Source: an uncultured Candidatus Berkelbacteria bacterium (GTDB lineage Bacteria > Patescibacteriota > UBA1384 > CAILIB01). From it: DNA of 64,000 nt. How positions within the stretch are numbered: position 1 is the stretch's first letter; each line of letters begins with the position of its first letter. The DNA lies in assembly GCA_903834195.1 (NCBI GenBank), contig CAILIB010000040.1:7297-71296 (forward strand). Direction: 5' to 3'. The notes under the pieces were generated by a model. That model saw nothing but the letters and a program-made list of their open reading frames with translations. It was not told the DNA's origin and searched no databases. This document shows positions 10,236 through 12,584 of the stretch, piece by piece. The position numbers and the translations under genes were made by a program.

Positions 10236-12584
10236 TTGCTTGCAGACTACTCTGGCTGTCATACTAATAGCATGCAGATACTGAAGAAAATGCCTGGCGC
10301 GAAAGCTTCGCTTCTTCGCCGCACGTTCGCCTGGTGCGGAGTGCTTTTTCTCGTTTGCATGCAATCGAGTGCACTCCTACTCACATCAATAAAACAAGCC
10401 CGAGCTTTTACAAGTGTTGGGTATTTTGCAATTGATAACAGTTTTGCCTCTGGATCATCTCCCGTTGCTGGGGTCGCTTTTCAATTAACCATTCGTGCCT
10501 TTACTAACGGTGGAAACATCGTTACCGACTTTAACGACCAAGTAAGTCTCACTGATTTAACTTCATCAATCAGTCCTGGATTAACCACACCGTTCGTCAA
10601 TGGGGTATGGACAAACAACGTCATGATTACCAAATCAGCCAACGTTGACCATATTACGATGTTCTATGGAGCACTCAGCACGAGCTCAGTAGATTTCCAG
10701 GTTGCACCTGATACTCGCTTCACCAATCTTGCCCTCGTTTCTGGAAGTAACCAGTCTGGAGTTGTAGGAACAACTCTTCCTCAACCAATCGTCGTTAAGG
10801 CAATTGACCTGTACGGAAATGCAATTCCAAATATCACAATCAACTTTCTGATTGCTGCGTACCCACCAAATTCTTCTGGACAAAATTTGACCACCAATAG
10901 CGCCACAACTGGCGTATCGGGACAGGTAACAACTAACCTGCAAGCCGGCACGAAAGTGGGCACATACACGATTACTGCCCGAGTTGGTTTAGCAAATGGG
11001 CAACAGTTAAGCATTTACGAAAATGCAATCGCAGGACCAGTAACTAATCTTACTATTCAGCCAGTTATTACTGTAGTTCCAAAAGGTTCTGCACAACAGT
11101 TCTTCGCAAGTGCAACTGACCAGTATAGTAACCCAATTACAACATCCAACCCTTCCTGGAGTGTGATCAATGGCGGCGGAACTATCGACCAGAATGGAGT
11201 ATTCCTCGCAAGTAATACGTCGGGAAACTTTGTAAACACCATCAAGGCGCAAGTCGGAAGCGTAGGTGCACTTGCCACGGTTACCATTATTAATGAAACC
11301 AGTGGTACCTCTGAAGGCAACCAGCCAGGTGATGGAACATTTGGAAGTGGCGCGTCTGTTCCTCCACAAGGTAATCCTGGAGGCACAGCTGGTAGTAGTA
11401 GCGGTTCAAGCAGTGGATCTAGTTCAGGAAGTAGTTCAAGTGGAACAGATTCAGGTAGCTCCTCAGGAAGTTCCTCAGGCGGTTCTACCGGAGGCCATGG
11501 AACAGCAAATACTTTTGGAACCTCAAACACCTATGGAACCGGCACGAGTCAAACAAATGGCTCATCTCAGACAGATGGATCTTCCCAGACTGACGGCACG
11601 AGCCAAACCACTGGCACATCGACTACGTTTGGGACCTCAACCGATGACAAGCGAACTGGTGCTGGAATTCTAGATCGCATCTATGTTATTCCAAGCACGA
11701 TTAGCGTTTTTGCGAGCAGTTCACAACTTATTACTGCCCAAGGCTATGACATCTATAACAACATTATTAGCAGTGTTGCATTTGCCTGGAGTAAAACAGG
11801 AAATATCGGTGATCTCACCTATGCAAATGTGAATAGTACTCAGCTCAACGCAAGTAGCACACCCGGAAACGGAACTATTACTGTTGTTGCAACGCAAACC
11901 GATAGCAAAGGTACTGTGGTTACCAAAACAGCCACTGTTCCCGTTGCAGTTAAACAACAAACTGGTGGGCGTCTCGTATTCGATGCAATTTCTTCACCAC
12001 AAAAAACTGACACTGAGTTTACTGTAACAATTACCGCCAAGGACTACTCAGATAACATTATTGCGGGTTACCAAGGCCCTGCAACGCTTACTGACTCTAC
12101 CGGATCACTTCTTCCAAGTACTGCCACTCCATTTGTTTCTGGAATTTGGCGAGGTCAGGCAAAGATTCTGTACACCGGTGATTCAGTAACCATTACTGCA
12201 GTTGGAAGCGGATTATCAGGAGTAAGTAATGTCTTCAAAGTTGAAGGAGATAGCAAACCACTCAGCTTACGTAGCATTGGTGCTGCACTCTCTGGTGCCA
12301 TTTCTGCTATCACCGGACAAGGAGCATCAAGTGCCGCTGCATCTGCTGCAAAGTCATCTAGCGCAGCTTCATTGGTTCGAAACCTGGCAGCTGGTCTAGC
12401 AGCTGGTTTTGGCCTACTTGGCTCTGCAATCGGTATTGGCATGATGGTTGGTCGCGGCCTTGAAGCTATCGGTAGAAATCCGCTCGCAAAGGGCAAAGTG
12501 CAAATAAATATGTACCTTTCTCTAGTCATCAGCTTAGTTGTAGCTGCTATGGCAATCGTGGCAGCTATGGTAATCTTGACGTAA
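10236..12584 (+). CDS. Ig-like (Big_1/Big_2-like) surface protein with Ser/Gly-rich linker, fused in frame to a C-terminal ATP synthase subunit-c-like hairpin
   Basis: Probable start ATG 10272 ([11 protein letters not shown]..., signal/anchor '[19 protein letters not shown]'). Big_1-like '[29 protein letters not shown]'; Big_2-like '[22 protein letters not shown]'. The last 70 aa, '[70 protein letters not shown]', match the F0 c-subunit pattern G-x-x-IGIG-x(3)-G-x-x-LE-x-I-x-R-x-P. Stop lies 1 nt before the atpF ATG. Confidence 0.75.
11300..11660 (+). repeat. Low-complexity Ser/Gly/Thr-rich linker coding region
   Basis: Encodes [30 protein letters not shown]...[27 protein letters not shown]. 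Confidence 0.8.
12372..12584 (+). other. ATP synthase F0 subunit-c-like helical hairpin (possible internal TTG start at 12372 would give a 70-aa product)
   Basis: See the parent CDS. Helix 1 is GxGxGxG-like, the loop is 'RNP' (canonical RQP), and helix 2 '[27 protein letters not shown]' contains no Asp or Glu. Confidence 0.7.

What the first reader, a model, noticed from the sequence alone, without database searches (positions are those of the whole stretch)
10236..12584. The only c-subunit-like segment of the ATPase cluster is the in-frame C-terminus of a ~780-aa Ig-like surface protein
Seen in sequence: the reading frame is open from 10236 to 12584 with no stop. The first ~710 aa consist of a signal/anchor, Big_1/Big_2-like modules and a Ser/Gly linker. 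The last 70 aa carry the F0 c-subunit signature ([21 protein letters not shown], then a second hydrophobic helix). The stop lies 1 nt before the atpF ATG, and atpF, atpH, atpA and atpG follow with overlaps of 0-9 nt, so this ORF belongs to the atp transcription and translation unit. Established knowledge: both termini of a c subunit face the outer (P) side, so an N-terminal extracytoplasmic extension is topologically allowed. Inference: either a c-ring decorated with large adhesin-like ectodomains, or a c-type hairpin recruited as a membrane anchor that ties a surface protein to an F1-like complex. I know of no described example. An internal TTG at 12372 could also yield a free 70-aa c-like protein, and I cannot exclude that.
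Basis: partly seen in the sequence, partly recalled or inferred. Interest (0 to 1): 0.88.

Follow-up and report, generated by a model that had tools for sequence, protein, structure and literature searches.

The report
Surface-protein-fused c subunit, atypical CPR ATPase
In a group of ultrasmall bacteria, a second ATP-synthase-like machine has lost its proton channel, carries a large surface protein on each rotor subunit, and sits beside pilus genes, so it probably uses ATP to do mechanical work at the cell surface rather than to make ATP.

Summary
The ORF at 10236-12584 is open. An independent assembly reproduces it with 0 mismatches. It ends in a full-length ATP-synt_C hairpin above Pfam's threshold.

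It is not a one-off. 60 distinct long proteins (>=400 aa, most 650-2672 aa) from Patescibacteria (CPR) end in the same hairpin. Their usual operon is fusion-b-delta-alpha-gamma-beta-epsilon.

- None of the 60 has an Asp or Glu in helix 2. In the window, Leu767 sits where the ion-binding Glu should be. All 48 free CPR c subunits keep that Glu.
- An a-subunit profile hits 0 of 34 fusion loci and nothing in the window, against 46 of 48 canonical loci.
- These clusters are a separate paralogous clade. At least two genomes also carry a canonical atpBEFHAGDC operon.

Alpha and beta catalytic motifs are intact, and epsilon lacks its inhibitory C-terminal helices. Pilus-like surface genes flank 17 of 34 fusion loci and 0 of 48 canonical loci.

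Best reading: an ATP-hydrolysing F-type paralog that moves no ions and whose c-ring displays Ig-like ectodomains. The closest analogues are the Mycoplasma F1-like X0 ATPases. I found no published description. Rotation and coupling to the pilus are inferred, not shown.

The parts
10236..12584 (+). Fusion ORF: signal peptide, five Ig-like domains with an S/G/T linker, and a C-terminal c-subunit hairpin. 782 aa from TTG 10236; the likely real start is ATG 10272 or 10290.
10290..10406 (+). Sec-type signal peptide. The hydrophobic helix spans residues 22-50, and an A-x-A motif (ARA) ends at residue 57, before FTSVGY.
   Evidence: Hydrophobic segment 30-52; helix 22-50; the cleavage site is inferred from the sequence.
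10413..11300 (+). Distal ectodomain: three Ig-like beta-sandwich domains (residues about 60-355), including the sub-threshold Big_1 match at 186-251.
11301..11642 (+). Disordered Ser/Gly/Thr-rich linker (residues 356-469). Its length varies between homologs.
   Evidence: pLDDT below 50; variable alignment columns 395-590
11673..12251 (+). Membrane-proximal ectodomain: two Ig-like domains (residues 480-672).
12360..12581 (+). c-subunit-like helical hairpin (residues 709-782). It keeps the Gly-rich helix 1 and an invariant loop, [11 protein letters not shown]. Helix 2 has no Asp or Glu.
12534..12536 (+). Codon for Leu767, which aligns with the ion-binding Glu62 of the Spirulina c15 ring subunit (2WIE).
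   Evidence: alignment; codon read
12586..13116 (+). b-like peripheral-stalk subunit (176 aa): one N-terminal TM helix at 2-30, then a coiled coil.
   Evidence: NCBIfam subunit B models, E about 1e-6, below cut-off; TM helix; an iterated HMM links it to canonical b
13113..13661 (+). delta/OSCP subunit (182 aa)
   Evidence: PF00213, 53.7 bits
13671..15302 (+). alpha subunit (543 aa). It has the P-loop GDRKSGKT and the SVSRIG arginine motif.
15302..16171 (+). gamma subunit (289 aa)
   Evidence: PF00231, 155 bits, full length
16741..18156 (+). beta subunit (471 aa). It has [20 protein letters not shown] and DDFSDP.
19286..19525 (+). epsilon subunit, beta-sandwich domain only (79 aa). The C-terminal helices are absent.
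   Evidence: PF02823; length comparison
19765..20964 (+). Pam-like pilin paralog (399 aa, signal peptide). It shares the C-terminal motif QPSDxYTGxIxYxVxAKY with the next gene.
21072..22178 (+). Pam-like two-domain pilin (368 aa; public gene calls give 363 aa).
   Evidence: NF058581 CPR_Pam_pilin_C at 27.3 bits, below the cut-off of 55; AF2 pLDDT 91 with two beta-sandwich domains; Foldseek hits to CfaE/CfaB, FocH and SpaD
22159..22938 (+). Secreted or membrane-anchored protein (259 aa) that co-occurs with fusion loci.
23015..23935 (+). Signal peptide, Fn3-like / WxLIP_PGBD-like domain and a C-terminal TM helix (306 aa). Its architecture resembles the membrane-anchored PamC/D/R proteins.
   Evidence: comparison with preprint 10.64898/2026.03.03.709456
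23947..25218 (+). Secreted protein with Big_13, Big_6 and a dockerin domain (423 aa).
25215..26982 (+). Two further surface or membrane genes (189 aa and 397 aa in public gene calls). Their homologs lie upstream of the fusion in other loci.

Best explanation
The ORF encodes the rotor (c) subunit of a second, atypical F-type ATPase found in Patescibacteria (CPR).

Each c hairpin is made as the C-terminus of a Sec-exported protein of about 700 aa built from Ig-like domains. An assembled c-ring would therefore carry a crown of ectodomains outside the membrane.

The complex keeps a catalytically competent alpha3beta3, gamma, a short epsilon and a b/delta peripheral stalk. It has no a subunit and no ion-binding carboxylate, so it cannot couple to a proton or sodium gradient. 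It most likely works only as an ATP hydrolase.

The proposed mechanism is that ATP hydrolysis in F1 turns gamma-epsilon and the attached c-ring, or at least strains it. That movement passes through the membrane to the ectodomain crown and does mechanical work on the cell surface. The likely partner is the adjacent Pam-like donor-strand-exchange pilus or surface complex.

Shown here: the architecture, the conservation, the loss of the a subunit and the carboxylate, the paralogy and coexistence with a canonical operon, and the genomic linkage to pilus genes.

Inferred, not shown: ring assembly, ATPase activity, rotation, and the physical link to the pilus.
For: **The fusion is real and conserved.**
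- It is open in frame and identical in an independent assembly.
- 21 full-length homologs exist. 31 further species-level loci come from Saccharibacteria, Berkelbacteria, CPR2, CPR3 and Microgenomates.
- In total there are 60 distinct long proteins ending in the hairpin.

**The hairpin is a true c homolog.**
- Pfam ATP-synt_C is above its cut-off.
- The last 71 aa align end to end with solved c subunits; the best is 2WIE at E = 6.5e-7.

**Features needed for a ring and for F1 contact are kept.**
- The loop [11 protein letters not shown] is invariant, and it is the same loop as in canonical CPR c subunits.
- 19 of the 78 invariant positions in the alignment fall within the last 66 residues.
- The spacing of the helix-1 glycines matches canonical c.

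**Ion coupling is lost.**
- 0 of 60 fusions have an Asp or Glu in helix 2, against 48 of 48 free c subunits. No D, E, Q or H occurs in either TM core.
- Leu767 aligns with Glu62 of 2WIE.
- An HMM built from 44 CPR a subunits hits 46 of 48 canonical loci, 0 of 34 fusion loci, and nothing in the 64-kb window. Fisher p = 5e-21.

**The motor is intact.**
- Walker A, the catalytic GERTREG, DELSE and the alpha Arg motif are all present.
- gamma, delta and the epsilon beta-sandwich are recognised by Pfam.
- epsilon has a median length of 93.5 aa in fusion clusters against 139 aa in canonical ones, so it lacks the helices that inhibit hydrolysis.

**It is a separate paralog.**
- The beta subunits of fusion clusters form one clade, apart from canonical CPR and Chloroflexi betas.
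- L037 and L058 carry both cluster types on one contig.

**It is linked to surface genes.**
- Pam-like pilin, chaperone-like and dockerin genes flank 17 of 34 fusion loci and 0 of 48 canonical loci, p = 1.4e-8.
- In L017 they form one same-strand array on both sides of the ATPase genes.

**A precedent exists.** Mycoplasma F1-like X0 ATPases power surface functions and include a protein with a signal peptide, a large domain and two C-terminal TM helices.
Against: - No biochemical or imaging data exist for this complex.
- Without an a subunit, nothing obvious holds the b/delta stator still against the ring. The b subunit has essentially no extracellular part. Productive torque therefore needs an unidentified anchor.
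- Ring assembly with 8-15 bulky N-terminal extensions emerging from the inner helices is sterically untested.
- Only half of the fusion loci show pam-like genes within 10 kb. Many of the rest are truncated contigs, but some long ones (L008, L009, L029, L034) lack them.
- The pilin matches to the NCBIfam Pam model are all below its cut-off.
- Profile comparison finds no homology between the ectodomain and the pilins.
- Cleavage of the ectodomain from the hairpin after translation cannot be excluded.
Confidence: 0.55

Rival explanations
1. Static anchor or platform. The c-type hairpin ring only anchors and clusters the Ig-like ectodomains in the membrane. The F1-like head acts as an ATP-dependent switch or assembly factor, with conformational signalling and no sustained rotation.
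For: No a-subunit stator is present, and the b subunit has no ectodomain to fix it. For the Mycoplasma Type 3 ATPase the authors state that the mechanism is 'currently unknown'.
Against: The whole rotary set is kept, including gamma, the epsilon beta-sandwich, b and delta. The c loop that contacts gamma/epsilon is the most conserved part of the protein. A passive anchor would not need these. A single TM helix would be enough, as in the neighbouring gene 23015-23935.
Confidence: 0.17
2. Two products. The ectodomain and the c hairpin are separated, either by internal initiation near 12372 or by proteolysis in the low-confidence linker at 673-712. The result is a bare, carboxylate-free c-ring and an independent surface protein.
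For: An in-frame TTG lies at 12372. The AF2 segment 673-712 has low confidence.
Against: In-frame start codons before helix 1 are not conserved. Five members have none in 38 codons, the window's TTG lacks a Shine-Dalgarno-like motif, and the aligned residue is F or Y in some homologs. The fusion is kept in all 60 long members, including proteins of 1386-2672 aa. That is unexpected if linkage were irrelevant. Even if the parts are separated, the ATPase still has no ion-binding site and no a subunit.
Confidence: 0.12
3. A real ion-coupled ATP synthase. The fusion subunit enters a hybrid ring with canonical c and uses the canonical a subunit in trans, so it merely decorates the normal enzyme. The Acetobacterium woodii hybrid ring tolerates subunits with missing sites.
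For: Canonical a and c are encoded in the same genome in at least two cases. The loop sequence is shared between the two c types. The A. woodii c1/c2 hybrid ring (4BEM) appears among the sequence matches.
Against: The fusion comes with its own complete b, delta, alpha, gamma, beta and epsilon set, and this set forms a separate clade. Its epsilon lacks the regulatory helices. It is linked to pilus genes whereas canonical operons never are. A mere decoration would not need a duplicated F1 and stalk.
Confidence: 0.06
4. Assembly artefact or pseudogene: a missed stop or frameshift joins two genes.
For: None found.
Against: An independent assembly is identical. 60 distinct in-frame homologs come from many studies and lineages.
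Confidence: 0.01

Closest known systems
Canonical bacterial F1Fo ATP synthase (atpBEFHAGDC), including the canonical CPR operons in loci L035-L082
   Same: It has homologous c hairpin, b, delta, alpha, gamma, beta and epsilon, in the same order from c to epsilon. The catalytic motifs are intact. The c loop (GLEAIGRNP) and the helix-1 glycine spacing are the same.
   Different: There is no a subunit and no ion-binding Glu or Asp in c. The c subunit carries an exported N-terminal extension of roughly 580-2500 aa. epsilon lacks its C-terminal helices. The cluster forms a separate clade and coexists with the canonical operon. It is linked to pilus and surface genes.
Mycoplasma F1-like X0 ATPases: Type 2 (M. 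mobile gliding motor) and Type 3 (required for the MIB-MIP antibody-cleavage system). Sources: PMC3369863, PMC12994834, PMC11864180.
   Same: It is an extra F-type paralog beside the genuine F1Fo. It has alpha-, beta-, gamma- and epsilon-like subunits and no recognisable a subunit. It is genomically and functionally tied to a cell-surface system. It includes a protein of about 770 aa with a cleavable signal peptide, a large non-membrane region and two C-terminal TM helices joined by a short loop: Protein 5 / MMCAP2_0577, with TM helices at aa 707-768 in MSC_0620. That layout and size match the fusion described here.
   Different: The Mycoplasma clusters have no b or delta, and their alpha lacks the delta-binding helix. 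They contain a 12-TM Protein 1 and a cytosolic Protein 2, neither of which is seen here. Their Protein 5 has no detectable similarity to c, and its ectodomain is helix-rich rather than Ig-like. Whether the two systems are homologous could not be tested, because no Mycoplasma sequence was available to these tools.
Pam pilus system of CPR bacteria (Troman et al., bioRxiv 10.64898/2026.03.03.709456)
   Same: The genes downstream of the ATPase include two-domain secreted pilin-like proteins. They give weak full-length matches to NCBIfam CPR_Pam_pilin_C and have conserved paired cysteines. There are also Fn3-like proteins with a C-terminal TM anchor. [quoted passage not shown]
   Different: The preprint reads the neighbours as ATP synthase and as a link to ATP production. 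It does not mention the c fusion, the missing a subunit or the missing carboxylate. The pilin matches here are below the curated cut-off, so these are at best divergent Pam relatives.
N-ATPase (alternate F1Fo, atpDCQRBEFAG)
   Same: It is a second F-type operon coexisting with the canonical one.
   Different: N-ATPases keep the a subunit and a c subunit with a complete Na+/H+ site, and they have AtpQ and AtpR. The NCBIfam alt_F1F0_F0_C model scores only 15.5 bits against a cut-off of 130.85.

Membership tests
F-type ATP synthase subunit c (Pfam PF00137 ATP-synt_C) | Two-helix hairpin matching the family profile above the curated threshold | tested here: met
   Residues 717-780 match profile positions 1-60 of 60 at 30.4 bits against a cut-off of 24. 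phmmer against solved c subunits gives E = 6.5e-7. AF2 predicts a hairpin at 709-745 / 749-781.
F-type ATP synthase subunit c (Pfam PF00137 ATP-synt_C) | Conserved polar loop R-(Q/N)-P that contacts gamma/epsilon, and a Gly-rich helix 1 | tested here: met
   [11 protein letters not shown] is invariant in 22 of 22 sequences and identical to the loop of canonical CPR c. The Gly spacing is shared.
F-type ATP synthase subunit c (Pfam PF00137 ATP-synt_C) | Essential ion-binding carboxylate (Glu or Asp) in the middle of helix 2 | tested here: not met
   Leu767 aligns with Glu62 of 2WIE. 0 of 60 fusions have an Asp or Glu in helix 2, against 48 of 48 free c subunits.
F-type ATP synthase subunit c (Pfam PF00137 ATP-synt_C) | Small free proteolipid (about 70-90 aa) that passes the equivalog-level models | tested here: not met
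   The protein is 782 aa. The best NCBIfam subunit C equivalog scores 30.6 bits against a cut-off of 71, and TIGR01260 scores 20.3 against 43.95.
Canonical F1Fo ATP synthase operon | An a subunit (AtpB) with the essential Arg, encoded next to c | tested here: not met
   An HMM from 44 CPR a subunits hits 46 of 48 canonical loci, 0 of 34 fusion loci and no ORF in the 64-kb window. An a subunit elsewhere in this genome cannot be excluded.
Canonical F1Fo ATP synthase operon | b, delta, alpha, gamma, beta and epsilon present, with catalytic motifs | tested here: met
   Pfam and NCBIfam hits and motifs. epsilon is reduced to its beta-sandwich domain.
Mycoplasma F1-like X0 ATPase (Type 2/3) | Seven-gene cluster with alpha-, beta-, gamma- and epsilon-like proteins, a 12-TM Protein 1, a cytosolic Protein 2 and Protein 5; no b or delta | tested here: not met
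   b and delta are present here. No 12-TM protein lies in the operon.
Mycoplasma F1-like X0 ATPase (Type 2/3) | Protein 5: signal peptide, a region of about 700 aa, and two C-terminal TM helices joined by a short loop | tested here: met
   The architecture matches: signal helix at 22-50 and hairpin at 709-781 of 782 aa, against the published description. This is similarity of architecture only.
Mycoplasma F1-like X0 ATPase (Type 2/3) | Sequence or profile homology to the Mycoplasma subunits | not testable with these tools
Pam pilus system (neighbouring genes) | Pilin matching NCBIfam NF058581 CPR_Pam_pilin_C above the cut-off of 55 bits | tested here: inconclusive
   Window gene 21072-22178 scores 27.3 bits (E = 3e-6) over profile positions 2-148 of 148. 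Three of the eight pilin-like homologs tested in other loci score 24-32 bits and five give no hit.
Pam pilus system (neighbouring genes) | Two-domain pilin (N-terminal beta-sandwich, linker strand, C-terminal Ig-like domain) with paired cysteines | tested here: met
   The AF2 model has pLDDT 91.4 with beta domains at 41-198 and 230-366. Foldseek finds chaperone-usher pilins and adhesins CfaE/CfaB and FocH. C151 and C162 are invariant. Donor-strand exchange itself was not tested.
N-ATPase | atpQ and atpR, an a subunit, and a c subunit with a full Na+/H+ site | tested here: not met
   alt_F1F0_F0_C scores 15.5 bits against 130.85. There is no a subunit and no carboxylate.

The most novel reading that the evidence does not exclude
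This would be a third kind of rotary cell-surface motor, after the flagellum and the archaellum. An F-type ATPase has given up ion translocation, and its c-ring acts as a transmembrane drive shaft. ATP-driven torque turns an extracellular crown of Ig-like domains, and possibly the attached Pam-type pilus, to support attachment, motility or host penetration by epibiotic CPR bacteria.

A corollary follows. Protein 5 of the Mycoplasma F1-like X0 ATPases may be a degenerate c fusion of the same type. If so, ectodomain-bearing c-rings would be a recurrent way to export F1 power to the cell surface.
Probability: 0.25. Interest if true: 0.97.

Novelty: new variant of a known kind. Interest (0 to 1): 0.82.

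Why it matters
Three open questions become testable.

[quoted passage not shown] At least some genes annotated as ATP synthase in CPR genomes belong to a paralog that cannot use or make an ion gradient. Metabolic reconstructions that count atpA, atpD or atpE hits will misread these genomes.

2. **What powers or anchors the Pam pili.** The Pam preprint proposes no dedicated trans-envelope machinery and reads the neighbouring ATPase as a metabolic link. The data here suggest a dedicated surface-facing motor or platform instead.

3. **How far F-type machines can be repurposed.** For rotary-ATPase biology this would be a natural c-ring with no carboxylate and no a subunit, carrying an ectodomain on every protomer. 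It may also be an intermediate that explains the enigmatic X0 sector of the Mycoplasma F1-like ATPases.

Tried and rejected
- **Artefact or frameshift.** Rejected: an independent assembly is identical and 60 in-frame homologs exist.
- **Conserved internal start producing a free c.** Rejected as a family feature.
- **The upstream DUF2207 membrane protein (8481-10220) as a replacement for a.** Rejected: it is found near only one other fusion locus and one canonical locus.
- **The 147-aa ORF (16210-16653) and the reverse 336-aa gene (18199-19209) as parts of the system.** Rejected: neither has a homolog in any related locus.
- **Homology between the ectodomain and the Pam-like pilins.** None found by hhalign; probability 0.5%.
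- **Solved structures of the pilins.** None found, by sequence or by profile.
- **Foldseek of the whole fusion model.** It returned only generic multi-Ig arrays such as S-layer proteins, invasin, FdeC and cadherins. This says nothing specific about function.
- **Literature searches for a prior description of the fusion or of a CPR ATPase lacking a.** Nothing found.
- **Profile search of 1.84 billion representative proteins.** It was dominated by giant Ig-repeat proteins: 1456 hits at E < 1e-30, most without a hairpin. It therefore measures the ectodomain repeat family rather than the fusion family.
- **Gene look-ups from TTG 10236 or ATG 10272.** Nothing was on record. The public gene call starts at ATG 10290.
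Full report
**1. The observation**

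The frame from TTG 10236 to the TAA at 12582-12584 is open for 782 codons.
- Pfam places a complete ATP-synt_C domain at residues 717-780 (profile 1-60 of 60, 30.4 bits against a cut-off of 24). It places a Big_1 match at 186-251, just under threshold (31.1 against 34.9). Big_2 was not hit.
- Hydropathy shows three hydrophobic segments: 30-52, 717-739 and 754-782.
- An AlphaFold2 model built on 22 homologs gives this layout: a signal helix at 22-50; three confident Ig-like domains at about 60-355; a disordered Ser/Gly/Thr linker at 356-469; two more Ig-like domains at 480-672; a short helix at 677-692; and a helical hairpin at 709-745 / 749-781.
- The b-like gene starts one nucleotide after the stop. 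delta, alpha and gamma follow with a 4-nt overlap, a 9-nt gap and a 1-nt overlap.
- Alignment with homologs suggests the real start is ATG 10272 or 10290. The public gene call uses 10290, giving 764 aa.

**2. It is not an artefact**

A Logan assembly of run ERR4193932 (L084) is identical to window 8819-14147, which covers the whole ORF. A second contig (L083) is identical to 14122-27494. The exact 764-aa product lies on four contigs.

**3. It is a family**

- A word-indexed search found 21 full-length homologs of 674-818 aa at 37-62% identity. Most carry precomputed Big_1 and ATP-synt_C hits, and JGI annotates several as 'subunit c'.
- In the alignment the linker varies greatly in length, yet the hairpin is always in frame. 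The loop [11 protein letters not shown] is invariant. 19 of the 78 invariant positions lie in the last 66 residues.
- A scan of one genome per species returned 31 further fusion loci. They come from Saccharibacteria, Berkelbacteria, CPR2, CPR3, Microgenomates and unclassified Patescibacteria. Several MAGs are labelled Pseudomonadales or Gammaproteobacteria, although the same fusion-type cluster is otherwise found only in Patescibacteria. The scan also returned 48 loci with ordinary free c subunits of 70-114 aa.
- A profile search of 1.84 billion representatives added variants of 1386-2672 aa that end in the same hairpin.
- Altogether there are 60 distinct long proteins with the hairpin.
- The window groups with Saccharibacteria-type loci (L001, L005, L003, L031) in the beta tree.

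**4.

- phmmer aligns the last 71 residues end to end with solved c subunits (2WIE, E = 6.5e-7). The ion-binding Glu62 of that ring falls on Leu767, codon 12534-12536.
- Across the data set, 0 of 60 fusion hairpins have an Asp or Glu in helix 2. No D, E, Q or H occurs in either membrane core. All 48 free CPR c subunits have the canonical AFAEAIAIY glutamate.
- An HMM built from 44 CPR a subunits, each carrying the RLFGN arginine motif, hits 46 of 48 canonical loci. It hits none of the 34 fusion loci within 10 kb on either side and no ORF in the whole 64-kb window (Fisher p = 5e-21).
- No proton or sodium path is therefore encoded with this cluster.

**5. The rest of the motor is intact and forms its own lineage**

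- The operon fusion-b-delta-alpha-gamma-beta-epsilon recurs in about 30 loci.
- In the window, beta has [20 protein letters not shown] and DDFSDP. alpha has GDRKSGKT, PGRDAYPGD and SVSRIG.
- The b-like and delta-like proteins hit only fusion loci by BLAST. After HMM iteration they connect to canonical b and delta, so they are divergent true homologs. NCBIfam agrees at sub-threshold scores.
- epsilon is short: a median of 93.5 aa in fusion clusters against 139 aa in canonical ones, and 79 aa in the window. It keeps only the beta-sandwich and lacks the C-terminal helices. By established knowledge of bacterial F1, those helices inhibit hydrolysis.
- In a neighbour-joining tree, the betas of fusion clusters form one clade, separate from canonical CPR, Ktedonobacteria and SAR202 betas. 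The very long variant L027 branches on its own, outside both clades.
- Two contigs (L037, L058) carry the tail of a fusion-type cluster and, two genes later, a complete canonical a-c-b-delta-alpha-gamma-beta-epsilon operon. L013 holds the head of the fusion cluster from the same MAG as L037.
- The system is therefore a paralog that coexists with the real ATP synthase in at least some genomes. Whether the window's own genome also has a canonical operon cannot be determined from these data.

**6. Genomic context points to the cell surface**

- Downstream of epsilon the window encodes two paralogous secreted proteins, at 19765-20964 and 21072-22178. They share the C-terminus QPSDxYTGxIxYxVxAKY.
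- The second matches NCBIfam CPR_Pam_pilin_C over the full domain, but below cut-off (27.3 against 55 bits). Three of the eight pilin-like homologs tested in other loci do the same.
- Its AF2 model (pLDDT 91) has two beta-sandwich domains. Foldseek retrieves chaperone-usher pilins and adhesins (CfaE/CfaB, FocH) and the Gram-positive pilin SpaD. Two cysteines are invariant.
- Further downstream lie a protein with a signal peptide, an Fn3-like domain and a C-terminal TM helix, and a protein with Big_13, Big_6 and a dockerin.
- Iterated HMMs find these families next to 17 of 34 fusion loci and 0 of 48 canonical loci (p = 1.4e-8).
- In L017, L011, L015, L018, L023, L025 and L033 they flank the ATPase genes on both sides, on the same strand.
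- A 2026 preprint solved the Pam pili of Ca. Mycosynbacter amalyticus. [quoted passage not shown] It does not mention a c fusion, a missing a subunit or a missing carboxylate.
- My inference is that the 'tail fibre-like protein' is this fusion and that the neighbouring 'ATP synthase' is the atypical paralog.

**7. Mechanism**

Shown:
- A Sec signal peptide plus a C-terminal hairpin gives the known c topology, with both ends outside and the loop inside.
- The loop and the helix-1 glycine motif, which canonical c uses for gamma/epsilon contact and ring packing, are the most conserved parts of the protein.
- The catalytic and stalk subunits are retained.
- The ion path is lost.

Inferred:
- The hairpins form a ring under an F1-like head.
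- ATP hydrolysis turns or strains that ring. Each protomer then carries that movement out to two membrane-proximal Ig domains, a linker of about 110 residues long enough to cross the wall, and three distal Ig domains.
- This does work on, or provides a powered base for, the Pam-like pilus or surface complex.

The weak point is the stator. Without an a subunit, and with a b subunit that has no ectodomain, something else must hold b/delta still. I could not identify it.

**8. Comparison with known systems**

- The closest functional analogues are the Mycoplasma F1-like X0 ATPases. Type 2 drives M. mobile gliding. Type 3 is required for the MIB-MIP antibody-cleavage system.
- They too are extra F-type paralogs tied to a surface system and without a recognisable a subunit. 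They contain 'Protein 5', with a signal peptide, a region of about 700 aa and two C-terminal TM helices at 707-768. That is the layout of this fusion.
- They differ in lacking b and delta, in having a 12-TM protein, and in showing no detectable similarity to c.
- The CPR system is thus closer to true F1Fo and may show how such X0 sectors arose. I could not test homology because no Mycoplasma sequences were reachable.
- N-ATPases are excluded.

**9. Rivals**

- A static anchor or platform without rotation.
- Separation of ectodomain and hairpin by internal initiation or proteolysis. The former is not conserved.
- A hybrid ring with canonical c that uses a canonical a subunit in trans. This is unlikely because the F1 and stalk set is dedicated and phylogenetically separate.
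- An artefact. This is refuted.

**10. Novelty**

- Six full-text searches found no description of this fusion or of a CPR F-type ATPase that lacks the a subunit and the carboxylate.
- Automated annotation already labels some members 'subunit c', and the Pam preprint noticed the co-localisation.
- I rate it a new variant of a known kind (atypical F-type ATPases repurposed for surface functions), of high interest. The architecture and distribution are solid. The mechanism is inferred.

Noticed in passing
window 16210-16653 (+) and 18199-19209 (-): Two genes interrupt the ATPase operon in this genome only. One is a 147-aa ORF with no family hit, lying between gamma and beta. The other is a reverse-strand 336-aa secreted repeat protein (weak DUF3466 match) between beta and epsilon. 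Neither has a homolog in any of the 82 related loci. Other loci (L031, L005, L014, L034) carry different insertions at similar positions, so the operon tolerates insertions.
   Followed up: partly
L027:5543-21993, L030, L028: A very long variant has a fusion protein of 2571-2589 aa. It is followed by an Fn3 / purple-acid-phosphatase-N protein, an ABC ATPase and a MacB/FtsX-type permease, and then b, delta, alpha, gamma, beta and a short epsilon. MacB-type transporters are themselves mechanotransmission devices. The beta of this variant branches on its own in the tree.
   Followed up: partly
window 8481-10220 (+): A DUF2207 membrane protein (579 aa) with a Gly-rich C-terminus ends 15 nt before the fusion ORF. 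One also lies within 10 kb in L003, but not in the other loci. It is probably not part of the system.
   Followed up: yes
window 23947-25218 and L017:6012-6572: The pilus-side cluster contains a dockerin-bearing Ig protein. In L017 it also contains a 186-aa protein with a weak cohesin match (21 bits against a cut-off of 24). This hints at a cohesin-dockerin joint in the surface complex. The equivalent window ORF (25215-25784) gave no Pfam hit.
   Followed up: partly
L037:4644-8878 (-), and similar gene pairs in L008, L009, L012, L029, L058: In one sub-clade, a TMEM260-like O-mannosyltransferase and a TraG/VirD4-like coupling ATPase sit between the fusion-type and canonical ATPase operons. The glycosyltransferase could modify the Ser/Thr-rich linker of the fusion.
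   Followed up: no
locus titles (L009, L012-L014, L020-L022, L024, L026 and others): Many MAGs that carry this fusion-type cluster are deposited as 'uncultured Pseudomonadales' or 'Gammaproteobacteria', and one protein is labelled 'Verrucomicrobiae bacterium'. The cluster is otherwise found only in Patescibacteria, so these may be taxonomic mislabels in the public records.
   Followed up: no
(representative search): The Ig-like modules of the ectodomain belong to a very large repeat family: 1456 proteins at E < 1e-30, many of 2000-7600 aa with up to 66 repeats. Most of these have no c hairpin. The ectodomain was therefore probably recruited from a pool of giant repeat proteins of this kind.
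   Followed up: partly
window 5607-7082 (+): The translated sequence looks like a purF-type amidophosphoribosyltransferase, read by eye and not checked against any profile. It lies upstream of the cluster, which is notable because CPR genomes usually have reduced nucleotide biosynthesis.
   Followed up: no
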